Shown: one piece after another, positions 7,961 through 53,155 of the stretch
Layout of the letters: each line of letters begins with the position of its first letter
Position numbering within the stretch: the first letter of the stretch is position 1
Notes under the pieces: model-generated
What the model was told of the DNA's origin: nothing
Seen by the model: only the letters and a program-made list of their open reading frames with translations
The model's database searches: none
Translations under genes and position numbers: made by a program
Assembly: GCA_947259485.1 (NCBI GenBank)
Contig: CAMYLU010000002.1
Coordinates: forward strand, 71,841-135,840
From: an uncultured Gammaproteobacteria bacterium
GTDB lineage: Bacteria > Pseudomonadota > Gammaproteobacteria > GCA-001735895
Direction: 5' to 3'
Length of the DNA: 64,000 nt

Positions 7961-8580
7961 GCCCGGATAGCTTTATTTTACTGGTAGTCGCCTGTCTCGC
8001 GGTAAACCTGACGCCCGGACCCTCGGTACTGTTGGTGACATCGTTGAGTGCAGCGCGTGGGTTTAGGGCGGGCGTGTTTGCGGTTCTCGGAATGACAGCT
8101 GGTGCTTTCGTTCACGTGGTACTGGCCGCGAGTGGTGTTGCCGCTGCGCTTGCAACGGCACCGCTTGCTTTCACCATAGTCCAATACCTGGGCGCGGCCT
8201 ACCTGATTTATCTTGGCATCGACCTGTTCCGGGGCAAACGAGAAATCGCGAAAACAGCTTTTTACCAGGACGGCGTAAACAGCTGGCAATACTTTCGCCG
8301 CGGCCTACTGGTCGATGCGCTCAACCCCAAGATAGCACTCTTCTTTCTCGCTTTTATCCCGCAATTTTTAACTTCGGTGGAAAACCCGGGATTCCTCATA
8401 TCGCTTGCGCTGGGCTCGGTATTCCTGGTCACCGGTGCCGTCGTTAATGGATCGCTTGCCTGGCTGGTTGCCGCCGGGACTACCCGTGCGCAGGGCAGAT
8501 CCCAGGAATGGCTGCAGCGCTGGATACCGGGCAGCGTTTTAATCTTCCTGGGTTTGCGCCTGCTGTGGCAGGAAAATTAG
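7957..8580 (+). CDS. LysE/RhtB family amino-acid exporter.
   Basis: Start corrected to the internal Met 'MSPDSFILLVVACLAVNLTPGPSVLLV', which overlaps the upstream stop as ATGA. Six-TM topology typical of LysE. Confidence 0.8.
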   Translation: MSPDSFILLVVACLAVNLTPGPSVLLVTSLSAARGFRAGVFAVLGMTAGAFVHVVLAASGVAAALATAPLAFTIVQYLGAAYLIYLGIDLFRGKREIAKTAFYQDGVNSWQYFRRGLLVDALNPKIALFFLAFIPQFLTSVENPGFLISLALGSVFLVTGAVVNGSLAWLVAAGTTRAQGRSQEWLQRWIPGSVLIFLGLRLLWQEN

Positions 8581-8721
8581 TGCTCTTTCAATATTATAAT
8601 TGCGGATTCAGCGTCCCTGTGCTGTTCCGCAGCAAGGCGCAGTGCGAAGCGCAAGGGCCATTCCCTTGCCGTGAACGTTGACAAGCTTACTGAACTCGCA
8701 ATTATAATGTTGAAAGAGCAC
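8580..8721. repeat. 25-bp near-perfect inverted repeat, 'gtgctctttcaatattataattgcg' and its reverse complement, flanking a 92-bp GC-rich spacer. Occupies the whole gap between two convergent genes.
   Basis: Read directly. The arms are 8580-8604 and 8697-8721, with 1 mismatch in 25. Confidence 0.6.
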
Positions 8722-9083
8722 TAGTTACGCCCCGGGATATCGACGATAAATTCCTCGCTGCTGTAACCATGCTTCGAATCCCGGGCCCGTATTTTAACCT
8801 TGTTAATACCCTGCGGAATCAGAACCCCTGACAGCGACCGGGTAAAAGGTTGTTCATTATCGTGCGGGTGATGCAGTACCCGGGATTTCAAAACCTTATC
8901 CTCCAGGGTAACCACATCCCATTGATTGGCATAATGATTCCAACCCTGGTCCGCATGCTCGAGCGTTACCGTAAAAGTACAGCTACCGGGGCATTCCACG
9001 CTGACTTCGAGAATGCTGACCTGGCCGGCATGGCTACTCGAAGACAGCAACAAGAATCCCGCAATTAATTTCTTCATCGGCAT
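8721..9083 (-). CDS. Hypothetical secreted protein, 120 aa.
   Basis: N-terminal signal peptide 'MPMKKLIAGFLLLSSSSHAG'. No family recognised. Confidence 0.5.
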   Translation of the reverse strand: MPMKKLIAGFLLLSSSSHAGQVSILEVSVECPGSCTFTVTLEHADQGWNHYANQWDVVTLEDKVLKSRVLHHPHDNEQPFTRSLSGVLIPQGINKVKIRARDSKHGYSSEEFIVDIPGRN

Positions 9084-13946: not shown

Positions 13947-14009
13947 CACGTCAATCCCGGTTCCCTCCCAGCGCTCCTATTGTAATCCAGTTGTCGGCAC
14001 GAGCAGCGG

Positions 14010-14060
14010 GATCATTTTGCGGGATCGCCGTAAATACATCCCCATGCCTGCGCCGTTGGC
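14010..14060. repeat. Partial, degenerate copy of repeat module A.
   Basis: 'ttttgcgggatcgccgtaaatacatcc' matches the module A core plus part of one arm. It sits between convergent psd and epmA. Confidence 0.45.
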
Positions 14061-14064
14061 AGGT

Positions 14065-22730: not shown

Positions 22731-23594
22731 ATGAGCGAGTCACCTTATATTCACAATGTCAGTATGCAGAATTTCCAGAATCTGGTGCTGGAAAATTCGA
22801 TTAATAAGCCTGTTTTGGTGGATTTCTGGGCAGACTGGTGTCAACCCTGCCAAACCATCATGCCGATGCTTGCCAAGCTCACGGAAGAATACGACGGTAA
22901 GTTCGAGCTGGCCAAGGTAAATGCCGACCAGGAACAGGAACTGGCCGCGCATTTCGGCATTAAGAGCCTGCCCACGATGAAGTTGTTTTACCAGGGACAA
23001 ATCGTCGATGAACGCATGGGTGCGGTACCCGAATCGGATGTCCGTGCAATGATCGACAAGCATATCGTGTCGGAATCTGACCAACTGGTGCAGGCTGCCA
23101 TGATGGCCTACCAGCAGGGCCATACCAAAGAAGCCCTCGAAGTGCTGAATAACGCTCTCGCCAAAGATCCGGACAATGCCGAACTGAAGGTCACGATCGC
23201 TCAAATAGTTTACGGCGAAGGCGATGGTGAAAGCGCCTTAGCGTTACTGGATAGCCTCGATAGCGAGGGCAATAATCTGGACGCAGCAATCAAGCTGCGC
23301 GCCGAAATCAAGCTGGCGGAACAGCTTGCCGATTTACCGGACCTCGACGATATCGAGCAACGACTGTCCCAGAATCCCAACGATCTCGCTGCCCTGTTGC
23401 AGAAAAGCCGGCATTTAACCGTCCAGGAAGATTACGACAATGCTATGGAATGCCTGCTGACGGTTATGCGCACCGATCGCAGCTACGAAGATGACGCCGG
23501 CCGCACCAGTCTACTCGAATTATTTGATCTGCTCGGCGGTGAACACCCCAGCGTACAAAAATACCGCCGCAAACTCTTCACCCTGCTCCACTAA
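22731..23594 (+). CDS. Thioredoxin-domain plus TPR co-chaperone (YbbN/CnoX-like).
   Basis: N-terminal Trx fold with an intact 'WCQPC'. C-terminal TPR-like helical repeats. Confidence 0.8.
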   Translation: MSESPYIHNVSMQNFQNLVLENSINKPVLVDFWADWCQPCQTIMPMLAKLTEEYDGKFELAKVNADQEQELAAHFGIKSLPTMKLFYQGQIVDERMGAVPESDVRAMIDKHIVSESDQLVQAAMMAYQQGHTKEALEVLNNALAKDPDNAELKVTIAQIVYGEGDGESALALLDSLDSEGNNLDAAIKLRAEIKLAEQLADLPDLDDIEQRLSQNPNDLAALLQKSRHLTVQEDYDNAMECLLTVMRTDRSYEDDAGRTSLLELFDLLGGEHPSVQKYRRKLFTLLH

Positions 23595-23712
23595 TTCGTA
23601 TCAACCAGGACTACAGCAGTCTAAATCTGGTAAACGGCGCAGCCATCCGCACGTCTTCGAGAAAATCGCGTACTACTTTTTACGACCGCGGCATCGATCC
23701 GTCAGTTAGCTC

Positions 23713-23824
23713 GGGTAATAGCCGCAAAAGACGCTCCCAACCGGCGCAAGCGCCGGTTGGTCCATCCATGGAATCGCTTGGAGCTCGGCATCCATGCCTC
23801 GCTACACTTTTGCGGTAATTCCCC
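23713..23824. repeat. Repeat module B, copy 1. Conserved core includes the 24-bp palindrome 'ccaaccggcgcaagcgccggttgg', nested in an imperfect 18-bp inverted repeat.
   Basis: Reverse-complement match to 30845-30973 over about 65 bp. Confidence 0.6.
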
Positions 23825-23890
23825 AAACTAACTGACTATCAAGTTGCATCCTTTCAACCGTGACGGCTGGCAATCGATGAGGCGTGGGCG

Positions 23891-23981
23891 TCGGAATCTA
23901 TTTGCGGGACGCTGCGCGACAGGGACGTCGCGCGCGAGCCTACATGGATGTATTTACGGCGATCCCGCAAATAGATTCCGA
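23891..23981. repeat. Repeat module A, copy 1. A 52-bp conserved core nested in a perfect 19-bp inverted repeat 'tcggaatctatttgcggga'.
   Basis: Core matches the reverse complement of 30696-30747 with 2 mismatches. The flanking arms have entirely different sequence but are still a perfect palindrome. Confidence 0.6.
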
Positions 23982-24007
23982 CGACCGCGCCGCTCACGAA
24001 TATTTGG

Positions 24008-24925
24008 TTAGCCGCGGGGGTGGTGCTGGGCGTGGATCGACTGCAGGCGGGCCTGGGCGATGTGGGTGTAGATTTGCGTGGTTGAAAGACTGCTGTGGCC
24101 GAGCAGCATTTGTACGGTGCGTAGATCTGCACCATGATTTAGCAAGTGCGTGGCAAAAGCATGACGCAACGAATGTGGCGAGAATACCGTTTTCACACCG
24201 GCCTTGAGCAGGTATTTCTTGATATTCTGCCAAAGCGCCTGGCGCGTTATCGCGGTACCGCGACTCGATAAAAAAAGTGCGTCATTGGGCACTTTCTCGC
24301 GTTGTAAACCGGGGCGTGATTGCTTCACATACTTTGCCAACCAGTGCAATGCCTCTTCACCGACAGGAATAACACGTTCCTTACTGCCTTTGCCGATGAG
24401 CCGCACCAGGCCGAGGTTGGTGTTGACCTGGTTCATCTGCAAACCCACCAATTCACTGACGCGTAATCCGGAACTGTACATGAGTTCTAGCATGCAACGA
24501 TCTCGCATGCCAAAGTCAGTTTCCAGGTCGGGAGCCGACAACAACTTTTCGATATCGCTCTCGGTGAGCGACTGCGGCAGGGTGCGATGAATCCTGGGCG
24601 CGCTAATCAATGCAGTGGGATTGTCCTGGCGCTTACCGAGCTTGATTAAATGTCGATAGTACTGCTTCAGGGTGGACAATAAACGAGCATTAGAGCGTGC
24701 TGACGCACCACCATCAAACCGTTCGGCTAAAAAATCCTGGATACTGGACTGGTCGGCGCTAACCAGCTTTTGATTTCGCAGTCCCAACCAACGTGAGAAC
24801 TGGCGCAAATCCTGCTGGTAAGCACGTAAGGTTAGATCCGCCAAACCCTTTTGCGACCACAGGCTGTCGATATAACGGTCGATTTCCGGATCGTCGGGTT
24901 GAGGCGGCGATTTTTTCACAGGCAA
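24008..24925 (-). CDS. xerD: Site-specific tyrosine recombinase XerD.
   Basis: C-terminus '[38 protein letters not shown]...HHPRG' matches XerD. Confidence 0.85.
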   Translation of the reverse strand: [305 protein letters not shown]

Positions 24926-24978
24926 AAAAAAGGCACAGCAAGCTGTGCCTTTCGATCAGTCACTAACATGAAAATCCG

Positions 24979-25464
24979 TTACTTTTTCTTCCTGGGTTTT
25001 GCCGACCTGGCAGCAGCCGAGTTAGCTTTCCTGTCCCATCCACTAACAAAGCGTGCAATAGCTGCACCCCGTTTTGCGGATAGTTTACCCAGTGCATCCG
25101 CGCGTCTATTGGCGGCACGAACTTCATTTTTCAACCCAGCAACCTGCTTTTGCAATGCTTTTACCTTGGCATTAGCAGCTGAACTGGCTGAAGACTTCTT
25201 TTTAGCTGCGGGCCGTTTCCTGGCTGCTGGCCTGGCCGCTTTCTTTTTGACCGCGGGCCGAGTTGCTTTTCTCTTGGCTGCCGGTCGGGTTGCTTTTTTC
25301 TTGGCCGCAACTTTTCTTTTAGCTGCGGGTCTTTTCGCTACTTTTCTTTTAGCCGCGGGTCTTTTAGCTACTTTCTTTTTTACTGCAGGCTTGCGAGCCT
25401 TTTTCCTTACTGCGGGTTTTCTAGCTTTTGGTTTCGGCTTTGCTGCTTTCTTTGCTGTCGCCAT
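24979..25464 (-). CDS. Lys/Ala-rich histone H1-like (AlgP/Hc1-type) DNA-binding protein.
   Basis: 161 aa. N-terminal two-thirds consists of KRPAAKRKVA-type repeats. C-terminal helical region follows. Confidence 0.7.
   Translation of the reverse strand: MATAKKAAKPKPKARKPAVRKKARKPAVKKKVAKRPAAKRKVAKRPAAKRKVAAKKKATRPAAKRKATRPAVKKKAARPAARKRPAAKKKSSASSAANAKVKALQKQVAGLKNEVRAANRRADALGKLSAKRGAAIARFVSGWDRKANSAAARSAKPRKKK
25195..25445. repeat. Imperfect tandem DNA repeats (27-30 bp units) encoding the KPAA-type protein repeats.
   Basis: For example 'acttttcttttagc(t/c)gcgggtctttt(c/a)gct' occurs twice. Confidence 0.55.
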
Positions 25465-25678
25465 CGTCCAATCTCCTCACGTTAACTTACGAATGTGAAT
25501 ATAAAAAGCATTAACAATTATACCAGAGTAAGTCTGCAATAAATTGAGAACGCTACGCACTGAGTTACGTCGTGTATTATAGTTGCGTTGATAAAAAATT
25601 GTACGCATTTTTAAAATAATTTTTGCACAAAATAATTTTATAAAAAACTAGTATACAGATTAAAAAATCATCTCAATT

Positions 25679-26122
25679 ATGACTACAAGTTATTACCGTG
25701 ACTGTCCCTCGGCAAGTTTGATCAAACAGTTCGCTGCCATGTTGTATGACAGCTTGTTAATTTTTGCGGTGCTTTTTTTTGCGGCTGCAATCGCGTTGAT
25801 CTTCAACCAGGGTGGAGCGATCGAATCAAACCCGCTGTTCAATCTTTACCTGCTGTTTATTTTGTTTTCTTTTTACGCGTGGTTCTGGCACAAGTCGGGG
25901 CAAACCCTCGGCATGCGGGTGTGGAAAATTCGTATTGTCTCAGAGTTTGGCGGCAACCCCGGTTGGGGTACTAGCTACCTTCGCCTTGTGTTTGCTTTAC
26001 TTTCGATACTTTGTCTGGGCCTTGGGTATTTCTGGCGGCTTTTCAAGCCATATACCTGGCACGACAAACTCAGTCAGACCAGGGTTATCGACGTTTCAAG
26101 CCTGGTTTCGCTTGAAAAATAG
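25679..26122 (+). CDS. RDD family membrane protein.
   Basis: Three TM helices. 'HKSGQTLGMRVWKIRIV' is the RDD signature region. Confidence 0.7.
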   Translation: MTTSYYRDCPSASLIKQFAAMLYDSLLIFAVLFFAAAIALIFNQGGAIESNPLFNLYLLFILFSFYAWFWHKSGQTLGMRVWKIRIVSEFGGNPGWGTSYLRLVFALLSILCLGLGYFWRLFKPYTWHDKLSQTRVIDVSSLVSLEK

Positions 26123-27202
26123 TTCGCCGCCAGGCCCTTGAGACTGTTTTCTTGCCAACATGTAGAGTGCAAGTCCCAGAAATGTCATGATAGGTAACAG
26201 GGCAATTACCAGTGCATTGACTTCGAACTGAGTTCCCAGTTGTATCACGAGGCGGTCTACCACCACAAAGGCCAGGCCCAACAATATCCCGGTCAGCAGG
26301 CGCTGACCCGAACTGCCCTGTCGTTGAGAACCGAGCACAAACGGAAATGCCAGCAGGCACATTACAATAATGCTCAATGGTGCGAACAGCTTTTGCCAGA
26401 ATATCAGGCGCTCGACCGCATCATCCAGTTTACTTTCTTCAAGGAAGTTAAGATAGGCGCGTAAATCACTGGTAGACATCTGCCTGGGTTCTATCATCAG
26501 TACTTCGAGCAATTGGAGCGACAGGTTACCTTCATATAATATTTGATCGTAGCTAACCGTCTCCATTTTCCTGTCGCTGATTACTGATTTGTTGACCTGC
26601 TGTAACTCCCAGCCCTGCTCTAACGGAATAGCTCGCTCGGCTTTTAAAACAGAGTGTAATTTCCCCTGCTTATCCAGTTCATATATTTCGATATCGCGTG
26701 CGACTCCGTTTGGTAGAAGTTGATCAATATGCAATATTCTTGATTCGTCCTTTGTCCACAGCCCCTCGCGGACAATTAGTGCCGATGTTTCTTCCTGCGC
26801 GAGACTCTTAACGTTGCGTGCGTAAGTTTCACTGTCCGGTACCACCCAGTCAGCGAGTAGAAAATTAAGTACAGCTATTATCGCTGCTGCCTGAATAACC
26901 GGACTGACTAATTTTGCCAGGGAAACCCCGGAAGCCTGCATAGCGATGATCTCGCTATTACTGGCCAGAGCACCCAAACCCAGTATGCTACCCAGCAGGA
27001 CAGCCAACGGCATAAATTCAACTACTTTCCCAGGTACGCTCAAAACCACAAATTTAATTATTTGCAGGATGTCGTACTGCCCCTCGCCAAGATCATCAAG
27101 CTGGCCGACAAAAAGGAAAATCAGGCCGAGACCAACTAACGCCAGCAATGCAGTAAAGGTACCCAGATGAATCGTGCGAATAATATATCGACTAATTATC
27201 AT
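26096..27202 (-). CDS. lptG: LPS export ABC permease LptG.
   Basis: YjgP/YjgQ family, 368 aa. Follows lptF with a 4-nt overlap. Confidence 0.85.
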   Translation of the reverse strand: MIISRYIIRTIHLGTFTALLALVGLGLIFLFVGQLDDLGEGQYDILQIIKFVVLSVPGKVVEFMPLAVLLGSILGLGALASNSEIIAMQASGVSLAKLVSPVIQAAAIIAVLNFLLADWVVPDSETYARNVKSLAQEETSALIVREGLWTKDESRILHIDQLLPNGVARDIEIYELDKQGKLHSVLKAERAIPLEQGWELQQVNKSVISDRKMETVSYDQILYEGNLSLQLLEVLMIEPRQMSTSDLRAYLNFLEESKLDDAVERLIFWQKLFAPLSIIVMCLLAFPFVLGSQRQGSSGQRLLTGILLGLAFVVVDRLVIQLGTQFEVNALVIALLPIMTFLGLALYMLARKQSQGPGGELFFKRNQA

Positions 27203-28296
27203 GATGCAGAACCGGGCCTGAAAAACATCACGCCCTTGTTACGTCGAAACAGTAGTACACAGGTAAAAGCGATAAACAATAGATGTACCCACCAAAAATT
27301 GACAATCATGGGTATCGTTCCTGCTTCCAATTGAGCACGGGTTACCACGATCAAATTGAGATAAGCGATGTAAACCAGAAGCGCAATTCCTACTTTTCCA
27401 AAGCGCCCTTGACGAGGAGCAATATACGATAGCGGCACTGCAAGCAATGCCAGAACTGTGAGTAAAACTGGAATAGTAATCCGCCATTGCAGCTCAACCC
27501 GGTCTCTGATCCGTTTGGACGTCCAGAGCTCCGCTACCGTTTTTTCGATACTGCGAACACGGGAGTCTGTTGCCTTGTTTTGCTTCTTGACTAGTATCCC
27601 GTGCCGGTCATAGTCGATAATCTTGAAGTTCTTTTGTCCGGCCACGCCTTCGACTCGCTGGCCGGGCCCTACAACCAGAAATAAATCACCACTCTGTTCA
27701 TCCAGCTGTTGACGACCAGATTTCGCAGTCTCCAGGATCATCGCATCCCGATCAGTCTGGCCGATTATTACATCCTGCAATTCAAGTTTGTCGGCACTTA
27801 ACGTTTCCATAAAAAAAACCGTGTCGCCAGCTTCGCTCTGGTTAAATTGTCCTGGCTTTATTTGATGAAACTCGTGCTGGTTATTTTCCTGGTCAATAAT
27901 CGCCCGTGCGTTACTCTGCATTTTTGCATTGAGTGACAGGCTGGCATAGCTGGTGAGCAAGAGCAACGGCAGCAGTACAATGGCGACGGCCTTATAAAAA
28001 TCACGATACCCAATACCACAGGCGTTCATTACCACTATTTCGTGATCTTTATACATGCGGCCAAAGGTAAAAATAGTACCCAGAAAAAAACTGATCGGCA
28101 GCAACAAGACCAACATGTTGACCGACTGGCTCAACATGACTGGCCACAGTGCCTGTCGGGGGATATCACCGTCGGCAATATCAGCCAATACCCTGCCCAG
28201 GGCATTACTCATCAGAATAATATATAAAACCAGCATCGTGGCGGCGCTGGTTTTAATAATTTCCCGCGACAGGTATGTGGTTATGATGTTATTCAT
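27199..28296 (-). CDS. lptF: LPS export ABC permease LptF.
   Basis: YjgP/YjgQ family, 365 aa. Divergent from pepA as in E. coli. Confidence 0.85.
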   Translation of the reverse strand: MNNIITTYLSREIIKTSAATMLVLYIILMSNALGRVLADIADGDIPRQALWPVMLSQSVNMLVLLLPISFFLGTIFTFGRMYKDHEIVVMNACGIGYRDFYKAVAIVLLPLLLLTSYASLSLNAKMQSNARAIIDQENNQHEFHQIKPGQFNQSEAGDTVFFMETLSADKLELQDVIIGQTDRDAMILETAKSGRQQLDEQSGDLFLVVGPGQRVEGVAGQKNFKIIDYDRHGILVKKQNKATDSRVRSIEKTVAELWTSKRIRDRVELQWRITIPVLLTVLALLAVPLSYIAPRQGRFGKVGIALLVYIAYLNLIVVTRAQLEAGTIPMIVNFWWVHLLFIAFTCVLLFRRNKGVMFFRPGSAS

Positions 28297-28454
28297 TGCT
28301 GAATAGAGATCCGATTCATTAAACCTGTATCAGTCTGAATGCCGGTTACTTAAACCAGGCTGAATAATTGCAGGGTTTTTATATATACGACTGGTTTTTT
28401 TTAGCACTTCACGTATCTTATCGCGTAATTAAAGCTACCAACACCTGGAAAGTC

Positions 28455-29942
28455 ATGGAATTCGGTCTTAAACACAATGCACCTGAAAATGCGCGCAGCG
28501 CCTGTCAAATTATAACTGTTTCCCAGGCGCGAAAACTATCCCGCAGCGGCCAGCGAGTCGACAAGGCCAGCAAGGGATTCCTGACTTCGATCACCAGGCG
28601 TGGCGACATGGAAGGAAAGCTGGGACAAACGCTGCTGCTGCCCGACGTTTCCGGAATTTCAGCTCAACGCGTTTTATTGGTTGGCTGTGGCAAGGAAAGC
28701 GACATGAATGAGCGCAACTTTACCAGGTTGATCAGCTCGATCGTGAGTGCGCTATCCGCTTGCGGCGCCCGTGATGCGGAATTCTATCCCGGGGACATTG
28801 GCTTAAAGGGACGCGACCTGGCCTGGAAAATCCGCCAGGCGACGTTGCTTATGAACAATAGCGAGTACCAATTCGATCAGCTAAAAAGCGGCAAGACCTC
28901 GACAAGCAAGGGTTTGCGCAGGCTAAACCACAATCTGCCGAGGAGTGATGCAAGCAAGGCAAAGCAGGCGATCAGCGAAGCGCAGGCGATCAGCGCGGGC
29001 ATGAGTATCGCCCGGGACCTCGGCAATCTGCCGGCAAACATCTGCACTCCAACCTACATAGCCAGGCAGGCCAGGCTGGTAGCCAAGGGAGAGAAACGGC
29101 TGCGTGTCAATGTGCTTGACGAGGCTGCCATGAAGCGGCTGAAAATGGGATCATTGCTCTCGGTGAGTGCCGGTAGCCGACAGCCGGCCAAATTGATTTG
29201 CATGGAATACCGTGGTGCCGCAGCCAAACAACAGCCGATAGCACTGGTGGGTAAAGGCGTTACTTTCGATACCGGCGGGATATCGCTAAAGCCCGGCGCC
29301 GCGATGGATGAAATGAAATTTGATATGTGCGGTGCGGCATCGGTAGTCGGGACTCTAAAGGCCGTCACACAAATGCAGTTGCCGATAAACGTGGTCGGAA
29401 TTATTCCGGCCACCGAAAACATGCCCGATGGTCTCGCCACCAAGCCGGGTGATATCGTCACCAGCATGTCAGGACAAACCATCGAGATTCTCAATACCGA
29501 TGCCGAGGGTCGCCTGATTCTTTGTGATGCCCTGACCTACGCAGCCAAATTTAAGCCCCGTTGTGTTATCGATATTGCTACTTTAACCGGTGCCGCGATA
29601 ATTGCCCTCGGCAAGGTTCCTTCGGCGGTGCTCGGTAATAATCGCTCATTAATCGACGGCCTGATAAAGAGCGGACAACAAATTGAAGATAAAATCTGGG
29701 AGCTGCCGCTGTGGGACGAATACCAGGACCAGCTCAAAAGTAATTTTGCCGATATGGCCAATATCGGCGGTCGCGATGCCGGCACCATAACCGCGGCCTG
29801 TTTCCTGTCACGTTTTACCCGGGATTACAAATGGGCGCACCTGGATATCGCGGGGACCGCGTGGAAATCGGGAGAAGATAAAGGTGCTACCGGTCGTCCT
29901 GTTCCGCTGCTCACCCAGTACATACTCAACCAGGTCAAGTAA
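28455..29942 (+). CDS. pepA: Leucyl aminopeptidase (cytosol aminopeptidase A).
   Basis: Start corrected to 'MEFGLKHNAPE'. 'NTDAEGRL' active-site motif and 'VGKGVTFDTGGISLKP'. Confidence 0.9.
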   Translation: MEFGLKHNAPENARSACQIITVSQARKLSRSGQRVDKASKGFLTSITRRGDMEGKLGQTLLLPDVSGISAQRVLLVGCGKESDMNERNFTRLISSIVSALSACGARDAEFYPGDIGLKGRDLAWKIRQATLLMNNSEYQFDQLKSGKTSTSKGLRRLNHNLPRSDASKAKQAISEAQAISAGMSIARDLGNLPANICTPTYIARQARLVAKGEKRLRVNVLDEAAMKRLKMGSLLSVSAGSRQPAKLICMEYRGAAAKQQPIALVGKGVTFDTGGISLKPGAAMDEMKFDMCGAASVVGTLKAVTQMQLPINVVGIIPATENMPDGLATKPGDIVTSMSGQTIEILNTDAEGRLILCDALTYAAKFKPRCVIDIATLTGAAIIALGKVPSAVLGNNRSLIDGLIKSGQQIEDKIWELPLWDEYQDQLKSNFADMANIGGRDAGTITAACFLSRFTRDYKWAHLDIAGTAWKSGEDKGATGRPVPLLTQYILNQVK

Positions 29943-30355
29943 TGACGCGGATTGATTTCTACCAGTTAAACCCCGGGCGCAGTCGCTACGACCAGGTGGT
30001 TTGCCAGTTGTGCCAGAAGGCTTATGAAAACAAGCAGCTCACCCTGTTACTGACGCAAAGCCAGCAGCAAAGCGAGCATCTCGATAAAAGACTCTGGACT
30101 TACTCTGACGAAACTTTTCTACCTCACGATAGAGAGGAAACAGATGGTCTCGTAACCCCTATTCTGATCCATGACAATCCCGATCCGGGTGGCGATCGTC
30201 AACTGCTTATCAATTTATCCGCCTCGGTACCGGCCTACTTCGCTCAATTTGAGCGCGTCATTGAACTGGTGACCGAGGAAAACAAGACGCAGGCGCGTTT
30301 ACACTACAGTTACTACAAGGAGCGTGGTTATCCACTTAACCACATCAACCTATGA
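29942..30355 (+). CDS. holC: DNA polymerase III chi subunit.
   Basis: 137 aa. 'RIDFYQL...' and conserved position between pepA and valS. Confidence 0.8.
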   Translation: MTRIDFYQLNPGRSRYDQVVCQLCQKAYENKQLTLLLTQSQQQSEHLDKRLWTYSDETFLPHDREETDGLVTPILIHDNPDPGGDRQLLINLSASVPAYFAQFERVIELVTEENKTQARLHYSYYKERGYPLNHINL

Positions 30356-30636
30356 GCGATCAAAAAGACATTCCGGTTCTAACCGACATGATTGAAAAGG
30401 GTATCGAGATCAAGATGTCGGATCTGGGCCTCGACGAAAGCCCGGATGGCGGAACTGCAGAACCATTCATTGTAAATTCCGAAACCGATATCGCCGCTTC
30501 TGAAGCGGAGGCCATGGACCCGTTCGAAGATAACCCGGCACTCGAAAAAGCCATCCGTCGAATTCTCGATGAACATACGGAACTCGCCTGGCAGGAAATC
30601 AAGCTCGTAATCCGACGCCACCTCGACAAACTCTGA
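30352..30636 (+). CDS. Hypothetical acidic protein, 94 aa.
   Basis: The ORF start overlaps the holC stop, which suggests coupling. No family recognised. Confidence 0.5.
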   Translation: MSDQKDIPVLTDMIEKGIEIKMSDLGLDESPDGGTAEPFIVNSETDIAASEAEAMDPFEDNPALEKAIRRILDEHTELAWQEIKLVIRRHLDKL

Positions 30637-30676
30637 GACTCCTCCCTCAATAAAGTCCCAGTAAGGGCATGCCGAT

Positions 30677-30765
30677 CAGGATGTCTTTTCAGAAACGCCG
30701 TAAATACGTCCATGTAGGCTCGCGCGCGACATCCCTGTCGCGCAGCGTTCTGAAAAGACATCCTG
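30677..30765. repeat. Repeat module A, copy 2. Same 52-bp core in inverted orientation, nested in a different perfect 18-bp inverted repeat 'caggatgtcttttcagaa'.
   Basis: See copy 1. Confidence 0.6.
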
Positions 30766-30844
30766 ACCGCCACGCCCGTTAAGGTATTCGTTACTTTCAG
30801 GAAGTAATCCTCAAAAGTTAAGTTGACAAGCAATTATTAAAGAA

Positions 30845-30973
30845 GCTGCTTTGGGGGAAAGACTGCAAAAGTGTAGCGAGGCAGGACGCCGAGCTCCAAG
30901 CGATTCCATGGATGGACCAAACGGCGCTTGCGCCGTTTGAGAGCGCCTTTTGCAGACTTTCCCCCAAAGCAGC
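30845..30973. repeat. Repeat module B, copy 2. Core palindrome 'caaacggcgcaagcgccgtttg', nested in a perfect 27-bp inverted repeat 'gctgctttgggggaaagactgcaaaag'.
   Basis: See copy 1. The central palindrome carries a compensatory a/c and t/g change relative to copy 1. Confidence 0.6.
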
Positions 30974-31012
30974 GTGGTAATAGAAACAGTGCATTTTTGA
31001 AGGGGGGCACGG

Positions 31013-31018
31013 TATAAT
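31013..31018 (+). promoter_or_regulatory. Candidate -10 hexamer 'tataat' for valS, 30 bp upstream of the start. No convincing -35.
   Basis: Read from sequence. Confidence 0.3.
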
Positions 31019-31047
31019 CGCGCCCTTTGATTTGCGCCACCGAGTTG

Positions 31048-33816
31048 ATGGAAAAAACCTACGACCCACATTCAATAGAAGAAACCTGGTACCAACGTTG
31101 GGAAGATAAGGGTTACTTCGCTGCCGACGGAGACGGTGATCCCTACTGCATCGTGATCCCGCCACCCAACGTGACTGGCAGTCTACATATGGGTCACGCC
31201 TTCCAGGACACGATCATGGATACGCTGATCCGCTATCACCGCATGAAGGGCAACAATACCCTGTGGCAACCGGGTACGGATCACGCCGGTATCGCGACGC
31301 AAATGGTGGTCGAACGGCAATTGGTGCAAGAAGGCAAGACCCGGCATGACCTGGGTCGTGACGCGTTCACTGATCGCGTGTGGAAATGGAAAGCGGAATC
31401 CGGCGGCACAATTACGCGCCAGTTGCGACGCATGGGTGCGTCACCCGACTGGGCACGCGAACGTTTCACCATGGATGAAGGACTGTCGGCCGCGGTGCAA
31501 AAAGTTTTTATCGAGCTTTACGAGGATGACCTGATTTATAGGGGTAAGCGACTGGTAAACTGGGATCCGGTACTGCATACCGCCATCTCTGATATCGAAG
31601 TCATCAACGAGGAAGAGAAAGGGTTTCTGTATCATGTCCGCTACCCGCTGGTCGACGGACCCATCAACGGTGTCACCCATCTTGAAATCGCGACCACGAG
31701 ACCCGAGACCATTCTTGCCGATGGCGCACTCGCGGTCAGCGCTGATGACGAGCGTTACCAGGATTTTGTGGGTCAAAAAGTACAGGTACCGATGACTACC
31801 CGAATCATCCCGATCATCATTGACGACTATGTGGATCCGGAGTTTGGCACCGGTTGCGTCAAGATTACGCCAGCGCATGACTTCAACGATTACGAGGTAG
31901 GCCAACGCCACGAGATGGAGGTGATCAACCTGTTCACCATCGACGCAATCATGAACGAAAACGCGCCATCGGCTTACCAGGGAATGGATCGCTTCAAGGC
32001 CCGCGACAAGATCGTAAAGGACCTCGAAAAAGCAGGACTGATGGTCAAAATTGAAGACCACGTCTACAAACGCCCATACGGTGATCGATCCGGTGTCGTC
32101 ATCGAACCCTACCTGACTGACCAATGGTTCGTGCGCGCTGCACCGCTGGCAAAACCGTCTATTGAAGCCGTCAAGGACGGGCGTATTCGATTCATTCCGG
32201 AGAACTGGAGCAAGACCTATTACAACTGGATGGAAGACATCCAGGACTGGTGCATCTCGCGCCAGATCTGGTGGGGCCACCGAATTCCCGCGTGGTACGA
32301 TAACTACGGCAACGTCTATGTCGCCACCGACATCGATGAGGTCCGCCACAAGTACGAGCTCGCCGACGATATCGAACTCACCCAGGACGAGGACGTTCTC
32401 GATACCTGGTTTTCATCGGCACTATGGCCGTTCAGCACGCTTGGCTGGCCCGATCGTGATGACCCGGCGTTAAAAACCTTTTACCCGACCAGCGTACTCG
32501 TTACCGGGTTCGACATCATCTTTTTCTGGGTCGCACGCATGATCATGTTCGGTCTCAAGTTTATGGATGAAGTGCCCTTTAGAGAAATTTACATGCACGG
32601 CCTGGTACGCGACGCCGAGGGCAACAAGATGTCAAAGTCCAAGGGTAATGTGCTCGATCCGCTGGACCTGATCGACGGCATTACGCTCGAAGACCTGTTG
32701 GCGAAGCGCACTACCGGGCTGATGCAACCCGAAATGGCACCGCGCATCGAAAAGGCCACTCGCAAACATTTTCCTGACGGCATTCCGGCCTATGGCACCG
32801 ATGCGCTGCGTTTTACCTTTACTGCGCTGGCTTCAACCGGGCGCGATATCCGTTTCGACCTGGGGCGCATTGAGGGATACCGTAATTTTTGTAACAAGCT
32901 ATGGAACGCAACACGCTACGTGCTGCAGAATACAGAAGGCGAGGACTGCACCGCGGGCACTCCAACACTGGCAGATCGATGGATCATCGCCCGCCTGCAG
33001 CAGGTCAGCGAGGGTATTGGCAAACACGTAGAAAATTATCGTTTCGATCACGTCGCGCGTGATTTGTATGAATTTGTCTGGAATGACTATTGCGACTGGT
33101 ACATCGAGCTATCCAAGCCGGTGCTCTATTCCGAGGATTACCCGGTCGGCGCAAAGAAAGCCGCGCGCCACACGCTGGTTACGGTGCTCGAAGCCATATT
33201 GCGCCTGTTACACCCGGTCATGCCCTACATCACCGAAGAACTGTGGCAACGTGTCGCACCGCTCGCATGGATTGAGGGTGAAACGATAATGCGCCGACCC
33301 TACCCCGAGGCCGACCCGGCACTAATTGATGAAGTGGCGCTGGCTGAACTGGAATGGGTAAAAACTTTTGTCATGGGCGTACGCCAGATTCGCTCCGAGA
33401 TGGATATAAAACCGGGCAAGCTGTTGCCGGTAATCTGTCACAATGGCGATCAACATGATCGACAAAGCATCGAAGCCAATCGTTCACTGCTGATGTCGTT
33501 GGCAAAGCTGGAATCCATTGACTGGCTGGAGCAGGATGCCCAGGCCCCGGAATCCGCCATTTCGCTGGTGGGAGAAATGCAACTATTGATTCCGCTCGCC
33601 GGACTGATCGATAAAAACTCCGAACTCCAGCGTTTACAACGGAATATTGAAAAACTGGAGCAGGATGCACAGCGTATCAACGCGAAGCTGGCGAACGAAA
33701 ATTTTGTCTCACGTGCCCCGGAAGACGTGGTCAACAAGGAAAAGAGTAAACTCGCAGATACCGAGTCGGCGCTTGGGAGCTTGCGCGCACAGGCGCAAAG
33801 GATAGCGGCAATATAA
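31048..33816 (+). CDS. valS: Valyl-tRNA synthetase.
   Basis: Start corrected to '[12 protein letters not shown]'. '[14 protein letters not shown]' is the HIGH motif and 'KMSKSKGN' is KMSKS. C-terminal coiled coil. Confidence 0.95.
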
Positions 33817-52805: not shown

Positions 52806-53148
<343 letters not shown>

Positions 53149-53155
53149 GGCGACA

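What the first reader, a model, noticed from the sequence alone, without database searches (positions are those of the whole stretch)
30677..30973. Second locus of the A+B mosaic, whole unit inverted, inside the valS leader and promoter region.
At 23713-23981 the order is B then A. Here it is A (30677-30765) then B (30845-30973), all reverse-complemented, so the about 300-bp composite is present as an inverted duplicate with a different 70-80-bp spacer between modules. Both A copies lie within about 40 bp of the stop codon of a co-oriented upstream gene (xerD, and the 30352-30636 ORF), as a terminator or 3'-stabiliser would. Here module B ends only 40 bp before the valS -10 'tataat'. Its 27-bp perfect stem would be an RNase III-grade duplex if transcribed.
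Basis: seen in the sequence. Interest (0 to 1): 0.55.

Follow-up and report, generated by a model that had tools for sequence, protein, structure and literature searches.

The report
Divergent pair of GGA-loop hairpin repeats
The segment between holC and valS is not a valS-specific control element: it is one of many copies of two related hairpin repeats of an already described, widespread gammaproteobacterial family whose function is still unknown.

Summary
Window 30665-30977 and 23700-23994 are inverted copies of the same two modules. A is about 110 nt and B about 138 nt.

Each module is a long hairpin. Its basal stem differs between copies but stays paired. Its core is conserved and carries two small hairpins with GGA loops (CANGGAYG).

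Module A shares an exact 25-nt core with the Yersinia YPAL/RU-2 repeat (Rfam Ysr224). It occurs in at least 119 places across Gammaproteobacteria. Module B occurs in at least 120 metagenome stretches. Both have the TwoAYGGAY architecture but score below Rfam's cut-off.

A and B always sit head-to-head, on opposite strands. This matches a September 2026 preprint on TwoAYGGAY doublets.

Covariation is strong. G·U pairs outnumber A·C pairs 35:1 (A) and 68:14 (B) on the GGA strand, so a single-stranded form of that strand is under selection.

The copies have no conserved promoter and no U-tail. They lie near gene 3' ends.

Relatives carry the pair at the same two sites, in either orientation and with different stems. 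A more distant relative has an empty 71-bp spacer with the valS promoter intact.

Verdict: a new member of a known kind. The terminator and valS-leader readings are not supported. CsrA binding is plausible but untested.

The parts
30665..30777 (-). Module A, copy 2. It has a 30-bp basal stem, hairpin 1 (GCGCGACA-GGGA-UGUCGCGC) and hairpin 2 (CCUACAUGGACGUA...). The GGA loops are on the minus strand.
   Evidence: CM R1 hit 30667-30775(-), 98.6 bits, E 4e-29. RNA fold is -76.7 kcal/mol on the minus strand against -62.9 on the plus strand. Rfam TwoAYGGAY scores 33.8 bits (cut-off 43) on the minus strand; Ysr224 scores 26 bits on the plus strand.
30778..30840 (.). Spacer between the two 5' ends of the divergent pair. 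It is A+T-rich, not conserved between copies, and contains a small palindrome, GTTACTTTCAGGAAGTAATC.
   Evidence: No sigma-70-like site was found. In many other copies the spacer is only 6-10 nt.
30841..30977 (+). Module B, copy 2. It has a 26/27-bp basal stem, two GGA hairpins (GGCAGGACGCC, CCAUGGAUGG) and a third G+C-rich hairpin (AAACGGCGC-UUGC-GCGCCGUUU). The GGA loops are on the plus strand.
   Evidence: CM R2 hit, 144.4 bits, E 3e-33. Fold. Stem arms (I9).
23700..23837 (-). Module B, copy 1. The GGA loops are on the minus strand.
   Evidence: CM R2, 134.8 bits. Rfam TwoAYGGAY scores 26 bits on the minus strand. Fold is -65.3 kcal/mol on the minus strand against -56.0 on the plus strand.
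23878..23994 (+). Module A, copy 1. The GGA loops are on the plus strand. It ends about 13-17 nt from the xerD stop codon.
   Evidence: CM R1 hit 23882-23990(+), 98.9 bits. Fold is -76.0 kcal/mol on the plus strand against -71.1 on the minus strand.
23640..23700 (.). Possible decayed remnant of a second, inverted A copy (left arm only) to the left of B copy 1. This is a weak call.
   Evidence: Judged by eye against the intact A(-) at the same position in L191 and L138 and the better-preserved remnant in L230 and L206. The CM does not detect it.
13995..14062 (.). Truncated A remnant. The left part of an A(-) copy is joined to the right end of an A(+) copy, and everything between them is deleted.
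   Evidence: (I3). The orthologous sites in L056 (A- B- A+) and L156 (B- A+) are full.
30981..31047 (+). Context only, not part of the element: the conserved valS promoter/leader block, with TATAAT at 31013-31018 and ATG at 31048.
   Evidence: It is 100% identical in L160. The part from the -10 box into the leader is kept in L253/L254, where the ORF94-valS spacer is only 71 bp and has no repeat; the part upstream of the -10 is not.

Best explanation
Window 30665-30977 is a head-to-head (divergent) pair of two structured intergenic repeats, as is its inverted twin at 23700-23994. Both repeats belong to the class known as TwoAYGGAY RNA (Rfam RF01731) and, in Yersinia, as the YPAL/RU-2 miniature insertion sequence (Rfam Ysr224).

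Each module is a long hairpin. Its stem drifts in sequence but stays paired. It is capped by a conserved core that presents two GGA loops (CANGGAYG).

The modules are non-autonomous, multi-copy elements. They settle in spacers at gene 3' ends, are gained, lost, rearranged and exchanged between lineages, and carry no promoter or terminator of their own.

Shown here: their family relationships, structure, copy number, pairing rule, location, turnover, and the fact that selection acts on a single-stranded form of the GGA-loop strand.

Inferred: that this form is RNA made by read-through from neighbouring genes; that the two GGA loops bind a CsrA/RsmA-type protein, so each copy is a small decoy or a protein-loaded roadblock; and that the long stem protects or processes neighbouring transcripts. 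The element is not a dedicated regulator of valS.
For: Identity:
- The exact 25-mer CGAGCCTACATGGAYGTATTTACGG of module A is in the published Y. pestis RU-2/YPAL sequence (PMC2759123 Table 1b).
- The same 25-mer is in at least 119 stretches from Yersinia, Stenotrophomonas, Marinobacter, Methylomicrobium, Haliea, Chromatiaceae and others.
- The Yersinia copies are called Ysr224 by Rfam at 127 bits.
- Module B's 26-mer is in at least 120 metagenome stretches.
- The B model hits both A copies on the GGA strand at about 46 bits.

Structure:
- For A, 22 of 29 pairs show compensatory changes. One pair in hairpin 1 reads AU 22, GC 19, CG 10, with 2 of 53 unpaired.
- For B, 98.6% of cells are paired and 28 of 47 pairs have double changes. 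That is 391 double-change cells against 84 in shuffles. Controls with partners slid by 1-3 columns pair at only 36-45%.

Strand:
- The GGA strand folds better in 81 of 88 A copies and 100 of 116 B copies.
- At variable pairs, G.U against A.C is 68:14 for B and 35:1 for A in the window's clade.

Pairing rule: every detected A-B or B-partner pair is divergent, 23 of 23 by BLAST and 25 of 25 by CM. This agrees with the 68% divergent doublets reported for Pseudomonas TwoAYGGAY (bioRxiv 10.64898/2026.09.22.753630).

No own signals: flanks have about 0 information content, and the scans found no promoter or terminator.

Location: gene 3' ends.

Turnover:
- An empty 71-bp site in L253/L254. Type-C elements occupy the same spacer in L252.
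- Full, partial and deleted states at the site near 14000.
- Cassette identity disagrees with flank identity. Against L160 the cassette is 70% identical and inverted while the flanks are 97-98%. Against L220 the cassette is 95% and the flanks 87-88%.

CsrA idea: published for TwoAYGGAY (PMC4333381). The loops here read ACAGGGAUGU and ACAUGGAYGU, which I recall as close to the CsrA SELEX consensus RUACARGGAUGU. The two GGA are about 22-26 nt apart, within the range I recall for a CsrA dimer bridging two sites.

Expression of the Yersinia relative: Ysr224 is listed as a temperature-responsive sRNA (PMC9029176).
Against: - Neither module reaches Rfam's curated cut-offs. TwoAYGGAY scores 33.8 and 26 bits against 43. 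Ysr224 scores 26 and 21 bits against 70.
- There is no transcript evidence for this organism.
- The GGA strand is not preferentially co-oriented with the nearest upstream gene. B singles are 26 sense to 62 antisense, and A singles 24 to 31. In a divergent pair each module is antisense to the gene next to it. Sense RNA therefore has to come from the far side or from unknown promoters.
- In many pairs the two hairpins are only 6-10 nt apart, which leaves no room for internal promoters.
- The G.U excess would also be expected if the selected form were single-stranded DNA.
- No csrA gene lies in the window, and CsrA binding is untested.
- The mechanism of spread is unknown.
Confidence: 0.55

Rival explanations
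1. Purely DNA-level selfish palindromic element. The conserved core and the strand-specific hairpin are recognised as single-stranded DNA by a transposase of the REP/RAYT or IS200/IS605 type, or are copied by template switching at palindromes. Any RNA effects are by-products.
For: - Multi-copy with patchy distribution, and filled, empty and deleted sites.
- Strict head-to-head pairing, with hairpins often abutting, recalls REP doublets and BIMEs.
- Orientation is not tied to the direction of neighbouring transcription.
- The complementary strand of A reads GTAG followed by a G+C-rich hairpin, and the sense strand often has CGTC just 5' of hairpin 1. These are the tags of the REP super-families described in PMC3733652.
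- The review reports that YPAL makes target duplications of 3-26 bp at dyad-symmetric targets.
- Inverted duplications such as B(-) A(+) B(+) in L245 and A(-) B(-) A(+) in L056 fit palindrome-driven rearrangement.
- G.T wobbles are also tolerated in DNA hairpins.
Against: - No transposase or RAYT gene was linked to the elements. This was not searched systematically.
- The conserved part is central, not terminal, unlike MITEs.
- Two invariant U.G pairs and loops that match a known RNA-binding-protein motif are easier to explain at the RNA level.
- The Yersinia relative is detected as RNA.
Confidence: 0.25
2. Local cis-regulator. The hairpins terminate or stabilise the pepA-holC-ORF94 transcript and shape the valS promoter or leader, with RNase III cutting the long stem.
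For: - A begins 29 nt after the ORF94 stop and B ends 40 nt before the valS -10 box.
- The stems are 26-30 bp long.
- The family prefers gene 3' ends.
- The review reports YPAL as co-transcribed with upstream genes and possibly affecting their mRNA stability.
Against: - No U-tract.
- The same modules sit at hundreds of unrelated loci.
- At this very spacer, relatives carry the pair in the opposite order and orientation, carry other element types, or carry nothing, while the valS promoter block stays constant.
- The strand read from ORF94 into A is the strand that folds worse.
Confidence: 0.1
3. Two independent small-RNA genes, each a CsrB/RsmZ-like sponge with its own promoter in the spacer, transcribed outwards from the centre of the pair.
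For: The divergent arrangement puts both 5' ends at the spacer. The spacer here is A+T-rich. Each module has two GGA loops on its own sense strand.
Against: - No conserved -35/-10 signal upstream and no terminator downstream in 113 B and 80 A copies.
- Spacers are not conserved between copies.
- Spacers are only 6-10 nt in many pairs.
- The promoter scan found nothing.
Confidence: 0.07

Closest known systems
YPAL / RU-2 miniature insertion sequence of Yersinia (De Gregorio et al. 2006, known to me only through the reviews; Delihas 2007, PMC2759123; review PMC2229807), which Rfam lists as Ysr224 (RF02770)
   Same: It shares the exact central 25-mer CGAGCCTACATGGAYGTATTTACGG. A covarying GGA-loop hairpin sits just upstream of that core. 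The whole element is a long hairpin. It is multi-copy, intergenic, close to stop codons, and shows filled and empty sites among relatives.
   Different: The outer arms are unrelated in sequence, and the element here is about 110 nt rather than 167-168 bp. Rfam's Ysr224 model scores only 21-26 bits against a cut-off of 70. Ysr224 is annotated on the strand opposite the GGA loops. Here A is partnered with a second module, B.
TwoAYGGAY RNA (Rfam RF01731; Weinberg et al. 2010, PMC2864571) and its extended Pseudomonadota form (bioRxiv 10.64898/2026.09.22.753630)
   Same: Two adjacent hairpins with A-Y/R-GGA-Y loops sit on a common, elongated basal stem. Genomes hold many copies. Copies are frequently divergent doublets 150-250 bp apart. 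Some variants have extra hairpins. A CsrA/Rsm link has been proposed.
   Different: Scores are below the gathering score: 33.8 bits for A and 26 bits for B, against 43. No upstream GMTBT repeat array and no downstream REP array were seen here, although I did not test for the GMTBT repeats explicitly. Loop 1 of A is AGGGAU, so R rather than Y. One loop of B copy 2 is degenerate (CAGGAC). The preprint's extended model was not available to test.
REP / BIME / REPIN elements mobilised by RAYT transposases (E. coli, Pseudomonas; Di Nocera et al. 2013, PMC3733652)
   Same: They are short palindromic extragenic repeats at gene 3' ends, used in alternating or inverted orientation as doublets and mosaics. 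GTAG-like and CGTC-like motifs sit next to a G+C-rich hairpin. A strand-specific hairpin is plausible.
   Different: The modules here are 3-5 times longer and have a multi-hairpin core. The two partners, A and B, are not copies of each other. No RAYT gene was linked.
CsrB/CsrC/RsmX/Y/Z sponge RNAs
   Same: GGA motifs are presented in the loops of short hairpins (CANGGANG).
   Different: Those are single-copy genes with their own regulated promoter and terminator and 5 to about 20 sites. Here there are two sites per module, no promoter or terminator, and many copies.
Correia/NEMIS and ERIC elements (MITEs that fold into long RNA hairpins)
   Same: They are small non-coding repeats co-transcribed with neighbours. 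Their long stems are cut by RNase III or change mRNA stability (background in PMC3733652).
   Different: Those have conserved terminal inverted repeats and TA target duplications. Here the ends vary and the centre is conserved.

Membership tests
TwoAYGGAY RNA (RF01731) | Two consecutive hairpins emerging from one basal stem | tested here: met
   MFE folds of all four window copies. Consensus structures with covariation for 53 A and 70 B homologues.
TwoAYGGAY RNA (RF01731) | AYGGAY in both terminal loops | tested here: inconclusive
   A has AGGGAU (R instead of Y) and AUGGAC/U. B copy 1 has AUGGAU twice. B copy 2 has CAGGAC and AUGGAU. Family-wide the loop is CA-N-GGA-Y-G.
TwoAYGGAY RNA (RF01731) | Score at or above Rfam's gathering score (43 bits) | tested here: not met
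   33.8 bits (A, 30658-30784 minus strand) and 26.0 bits (B, 23694-23843 minus strand). No hit at gathering level in the window or in 18 related loci.
TwoAYGGAY RNA, extended Pseudomonadota form (2026 preprint) | Multi-copy, elongated basal stem, enriched as divergent doublets | tested here: met
   At least 119 and at least 120 stretches. Stems of 26-30 bp. 23 of 23 and 25 of 25 pairs are divergent.
TwoAYGGAY RNA, extended Pseudomonadota form (2026 preprint) | Match to the preprint's extended covariance model; upstream GMTBT(T) repeat array | not testable with these tools
   The model is not available here. Position-wise information content of the 70 nt upstream of 113 B and 80 A copies was about 0. 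That test would not detect short repeats at variable offsets.
YPAL / RU-2 (Rfam Ysr224, RF02770) | Shared central core sequence | tested here: met
   The exact 25-mer is present in the published RU-2 sequence and in both window A copies.
YPAL / RU-2 (Rfam Ysr224, RF02770) | Full-length similarity (167-168 bp unit; Rfam cut-off 70 bits) | tested here: not met
   26 and 21 bits. The arms are unrelated to the Yersinia arms.
YPAL / RU-2 (Rfam Ysr224, RF02770) | Intergenic, close to stop codons, with filled and empty sites among relatives | tested here: met
   (location). (empty 71-bp site in L253/L254). (full and deleted states at the site near 14000).
YPAL / RU-2 (Rfam Ysr224, RF02770) | Target-site duplications of 3-26 bp | tested here: inconclusive
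   The only empty site is too diverged from the filled ones to align the junctions.
REP / REPIN (RAYT-mobilised) | 20-40-bp palindrome with a GTAG or CGTC tag, and a cognate RAYT gene in the genome | not tested
   GTAG (complementary strand) and CGTC-like motifs flank hairpin 1 of A. No whole genome was available in which to look for a RAYT gene.
Intrinsic terminator | G+C-rich hairpin followed directly by a U-run | tested here: not met
   The one terminator-like site reported at each locus (about one is expected by chance) does not correspond to a module hairpin with a U-run. No T enrichment downstream of 113 B or 80 A copies.
CsrB/RsmZ-type sponge sRNA gene | Own promoter and terminator around an array of GGA hairpins | tested here: not met
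   The GGA hairpins are present, but there is no conserved promoter or terminator, and spacers of 6-10 nt in many pairs.
Classical MITE | Conserved terminal inverted repeats matching a parent IS, with a fixed target duplication | tested here: not met
   The ends (basal stems) vary between copies and the centre is conserved.

The most novel reading that the evidence does not exclude
The A/B pairs could be units of a genome-wide, copy-number-tunable network of CsrA/RsmA decoys that spreads like a mobile element. Each pair would deliver one GGA-loop RNA from each strand, whichever way it is transcribed. Old inverted 'alleles' of the pair would be kept and exchanged between species at the same sites. 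Under this reading YPAL (a 'MITE'), Ysr224 (an 'sRNA') and TwoAYGGAY (a 'structured RNA') are one superfamily across Gammaproteobacteria, with a conserved protein partner that recognises the invariant 25-nt core.
Probability: 0.2. Interest if true: 0.75.

Novelty: new member of a known kind. Interest (0 to 1): 0.42.

Why it matters
Taken alone, the finding is an ordinary copy of a dispersed repeat and says little about valS. Its value is comparative, in three ways.

1. It links three literatures that appear not to cite one another: the YPAL/RU-2 insertion sequences of Yersinia, the Rfam sRNA Ysr224, and the TwoAYGGAY RNA motif. The September 2026 preprint does not mention YPAL or Yersinia.

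2. It shows that the basal stems covary and that G·U pairs are strongly one-sided. Selection therefore acts on one single strand, and on opposite strands for the two partners of a pair.

3. It shows that the pair is always head-to-head and sits at gene 3' ends. At two orthologous sites it exists as old inverted variants whose relationships disagree with those of the flanking genes.

These are concrete constraints on any model of what this abundant and still unexplained element class does.

Tried and rejected
- Rfam at gathering level found only RNase P in the window. It found no TwoAYGGAY in 18 related loci.
- Promoter and terminator scans at both loci found nothing usable.
- I looked for a conserved promoter or U-tail by aligning flanks at the hairpin base in 113 B and 80 A copies. 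There was none.
- I considered that a conserved core had inserted into pre-existing, locus-specific palindromes. I rejected this because related stems recur at different loci, and a stem-only remnant (L206) is better read as a deletion.
- I considered one inversion between the two inverted loci 7 kb apart. I rejected it because the 7 kb between them is collinear in the relative whose pairs are flipped.
- I considered a recent in-place flip of the cassette. I rejected it because the flipped cassettes are only 70-84% identical while the flanks are 97-100%.
- I suspected that the lower identity between the two loci marked a recombination tract bounded by the pairs. The tract is confined to lptF/lptG (about 25800-28300) and is unrelated.
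- An exact look-up of the 94-aa ORF found nothing.
- Plasmids, E. coli genomes and viral contigs gave almost nothing: 2 Yersinia plasmids, 0 E. coli hits and 4 viral contigs.
- There is no csrA in the window.
- The De Gregorio 2006 paper could not be opened. I used two reviews instead.
Full report
**What is in the sequence**

The repeat finder gives 101 nt at 81% complementarity for module A (23881-23981 against 30676-30776). It gives 81 nt at 88% plus 33 nt at 88% for module B. A direct alignment shows that the cores are nearly identical while the outer parts and the spacer differ.

Each module is itself a long hairpin:
- A has stems of 29-30 nt at 90-93% complementarity (I7, I8).
- B at 30845-30871 / 30947-30973 has 27 nt with one mismatch (I9).

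Folding z-scores against shuffles are -6 to -11.

- a thioredoxin-TPR gene (22731-23594, +)
- xerD-like (24008-24925, -)
- lptG/lptF
- pepA
- holC (29942-30355)
- a conserved 94-aa ORF (30352-30636) with 322 homologues
- valS

The valS ORF listed from TTG 31027 most likely starts at ATG 31048 (MEKTYDP...).

**What the modules are**

Rfam in E-value mode gave two leads for A:
- TwoAYGGAY (RF01731): 33.8 bits against a cut-off of 43, on the minus strand at the second locus.
- Ysr224 (RF02770): 26 bits against a cut-off of 70, on the plus strand, with a striking run of identical bases.

B at the first locus scored 26 bits with TwoAYGGAY.

These came from Yersinia pestis and Y. similis (many copies each), Stenotrophomonas, Marinobacter, Methylomicrobium and Methylotuvimicrobium, Klebsiella MAGs, Haliea, Chromatiaceae and others.

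Listed in register, all copies share one plan: a variable 5' arm, then ACCGU or ACGCU, then a hairpin whose stem differs from copy to copy and whose loop reads CA-N-GGA-Y-G, then the invariant CGAGCCUACAUGGAYGUAUUUACGG, then the variable 3' arm.

The published 168-nt RU-2 (= YPAL) repeat of Y. pestis contains that same 25-mer (PMC2759123, Table 1b). Module A is therefore a distant relative of the Yersinia palindromic sequence, a miniature insertion element described in 2006. Rfam lists the same element as the sRNA Ysr224 at 127 bits in the Yersinia loci.

According to the review PMC2229807, YPAL elements:
- make target duplications of 3-26 bp
- insert at or next to dyad symmetries
- differ in presence among Yersinia strains

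**Module B**

B has the same plan plus a third G+C-rich hairpin. Among the genome loci it occurs only in the window's own clade of uncultured Gammaproteobacteria, always next to A.

I built covariance models from 53 A and 70 B homologues. They score the four window copies at 98.6-144.4 bits and find no further full copy in the window. The B model also hits both A copies, on the GGA strand, at about 46 bits. A and B are therefore two branches of one architectural family.

**Structure is under selection, on one strand**

For A, 22 of 29 consensus pairs show compensatory changes. One pair in hairpin 1, for example, reads AU 22, GC 19 and CG 10, with 2 of 53 unpaired.

For B:
- 98.6% of cells are paired, against 85.5% in shuffles.
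- 28 of 47 pairs have double changes.
- There are 391 double-change cells against 84 in shuffles.
- Controls with every partner slid by 1-3 columns pair at only 36-45%.
- Two U.G pairs next to the junction are invariant.

The strand that carries the GGA loops folds better in 81 of 88 A copies and 100 of 116 B copies.

The cleanest test compares G.U pairs with A.C pairs. An A.C pair is what a G.U pair on the other strand looks like. At variable pairs the counts are 68 to 14 for B (p = 1e-9) and 35 to 1 for A in the window's clade (p = 1e-9). A double-stranded palindrome gives no reason for such asymmetry, so a single-stranded form of the GGA strand is what selection sees.

In a pair, this preferred strand is the opposite one for the two partners.

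**The pairing rule**

At the second locus A is on the minus strand and B on the plus strand. At the first locus B is minus and A is plus. Both are head-to-head.

Every other pair found is also head-to-head: 23 of 23 by BLAST and 25 of 25 by the B model on 100 metagenome loci. Some of the latter are the same site sampled twice. In many of these pairs the two hairpin bases are only 6-10 nt apart.

A third subfamily, here called type C, pairs in the same way.

This is the arrangement reported in September 2026 for TwoAYGGAY elements of Pseudomonas. That preprint reports median copy numbers of 11-23 per genome among the species groups outside the P. aeruginosa group, up to 202 in one strain, 68% divergent doublets and a median spacing of 249 bp. 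It proposes Csr/Rsm sponging and a mobile-element-like mode of spread. It does not mention YPAL or Yersinia.

**No signals of their own; location**

I aligned the flanks of 113 B and 80 A copies at the hairpin base. They carry about 0 bits of information per position, so there is no -35/-10 signal and no U-run. The simple scans at both window loci agree.

Of 83 classifiable B copies, 52 lie between convergent genes, 30 between co-directional genes and 1 between divergent genes. For A, 3 of 65 lie between divergent genes. The median distance from hairpin to the nearest stop codon is 45-80 nt.

Orientation is not what a simple 3'-UTR model predicts. The GGA strand is antisense to the nearest upstream gene in 62 of 88 B 'singles' (p = 2e-4) and in 31 of 55 A singles. 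Some of these 'singles' may have partners that went undetected.

**History of the two window loci**

Metagenome contigs orthologous to the window cover a range of distances. One contig (L191 + L160) is collinear with window 19291-39561 at 97-99% identity outside a diverged lptF/lptG tract.

In that contig both pairs are present at the same sites but in the opposite order and orientation, and with different stems. At the holC-valS spacer the flanks are identical up to the ORF94 stop codon and again from 30981, while the 344-bp cassette between them is only 70% identical and inverted. At the xerD site the cassette is 84% identical and inverted.

A relative whose flanks are only 87-88% identical (L220) has the window's orientation, with 95% cassette identity.

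Across relatives both orientations occur at both sites:
- xerD site (locus 1): L230, L184 and L206 match the window. L191, L138 and L213 are flipped.
- holC-valS site (locus 2): L220 matches the window. L160, L193, L206 and L244-L251 are flipped.

These are therefore old variants that have been exchanged between lineages, not a recent flip.

Partial states are common:
- B(-) A(+) B(+) in L245
- A(-) B(-) A(+) in L056
- a B reduced to its outer stem in L206
- the window's own remnant at 13995-14062, where two inverted A copies have been fused by a deletion

A series of ORF94 homologues dates the occupancy. The pair is present at 94%, 76% and 73% amino-acid identity. At 62%, two type-C elements fill a 971-bp spacer instead. 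At 57% (L253/L254) the spacer is 71 bp and has no element, but the part of the block from the -10 box into the leader, GGCAAGGTATAATCGCGCCCTTT, is intact.

The pair is thus an insertion upstream of the valS promoter, old within this clade and not part of the promoter or leader.

**How it most likely works**

Shown: family relationships, fold, strand-specific selection, pairing rule, absence of own signals, preference for gene 3' ends, and turnover.

Inferred:
- The selected single strand is RNA made by read-through. Between convergent genes both strands are transcribed, and a head-to-head pair offers one sense module to each direction.
- The loops bind CsrA/RsmA. They read ACAGGGAUGU and ACAUGGAYGU and lie about 22-26 nt apart. 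This idea is already published for TwoAYGGAY (PMC4333381). My comparison with the SELEX consensus and with dimer spacing rests on memory.
- The 26-30-bp stems could block exonucleases or be cut by RNase III, as argued for the Yersinia and Neisseria repeats.

The main rival is a purely DNA-level element whose GGA-strand hairpin is recognised as single-stranded DNA by a REP/RAYT-like or IS200-like enzyme, or which spreads by template switching at palindromes. The orientation data and the abutting pairs fit that rival at least as well. I could not test for a cognate transposase.

**Comparison and verdict**

The finding is a new member of a known kind: YPAL/RU-2 = Ysr224, and the TwoAYGGAY class with its divergent doublets. 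Formal Rfam membership fails on score for both families, so I file it as 'same architecture, distant relative' and not as a curated member.

It is wrong on three: the element is not a terminator, it is not inside the valS leader or promoter, and it is not a recent insertion.

Noticed in passing
window 13995-14062: A truncated A element. The left part of an inverted A copy is fused to the right end of a direct A copy (junction ...ACATCC|CCATGCC...). Close relatives have a full B-A pair (L156) or an A-B-A triplet (L056) at the same site.
   Followed up: yes
L206, L138, L160, L230, L213, L027, L129, L131, L155, L156 and others (for example L138:3025): A 15-17-nt mini-hairpin, GGTCCGAYRYNTCGG, is optionally inserted just 3' of a GGA hairpin in A, B and type-C elements. 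It occurs 43 times in 1.93 Mb. All 22 occurrences within or next to A or B are on the GGA strand. The examples seen outside them lie in other GGA-hairpin elements. It looks like a modular extra hairpin or a nested micro-repeat.
   Followed up: partly
L128:~1100-1215, L134:~2020-2100, L252:1859-1975 and 2249-2369: A third subfamily ('type C', ...GAGACUCGACAUGGAUGUCGAG... / GGCCGCAGGGAUGCGGCC...) with the same plan. It also pairs head-to-head, with B or with itself. In L252 it occupies the same ORF94-valS spacer that holds A+B in the window.
   Followed up: partly
window ~25800-28300 (lptG/lptF, 26096-28296): Against the otherwise 97-99% identical contig Ga0265303_10000620, this tract is only 77-89% identical, and one 500-bp window has no BLAST match. 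It is probably an exchanged allele of the LPS-export permease genes and is unrelated to the repeats.
   Followed up: partly
window 25189-25365: Four copies of a 30-nt direct repeat (CGCAACTTTTCTTTTAGCTGCGGGTCTTTT, 67-100% identical) lie inside overlapping ORFs 24979-25464(-) and 24851-25498(+). The 161-aa minus-strand ORF has no Pfam match.
   Followed up: no
window 8575-8611 / 8690-8726: Another inverted repeat: 37-nt arms, 89% complementary, 78 nt apart, A+T-rich (AATTAGTGCTCTTTCAATATTATAATTGCGGATTCAG). It is unrelated in sequence to A or B.
   Followed up: no
window 52806-53149 (-): Bacterial RNase P RNA class A, 333 bits. It is the only Rfam hit at gathering level in the window.
   Followed up: no
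L013 (Nocardiopsis yanglingensis scaffold18), L070/L090 (Lentisphaeria MAG): Module-A copies in non-gammaproteobacterial assemblies. The Nocardiopsis copy is almost identical to the Stenotrophomonas copies, which suggests contamination of the assembly rather than transfer.
   Followed up: no
L039:5022-5128 and L008:7888-7994 (Yersinia): Rfam's Ysr224 model is oriented on the strand opposite the GGA loops, which is the strand that folds worse in the family at large. The annotated sRNA strand may reflect local read-through at the copy where it was first seen.
   Followed up: partly
window 30360-30833 (-), 30811-31071 (-), 30818-31165 (-): Mechanical ORFs of 86-157 aa run through the repeats on the minus strand. 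They overlap the conserved ORF94 and the hairpins and are almost certainly not genes.
   Followed up: no
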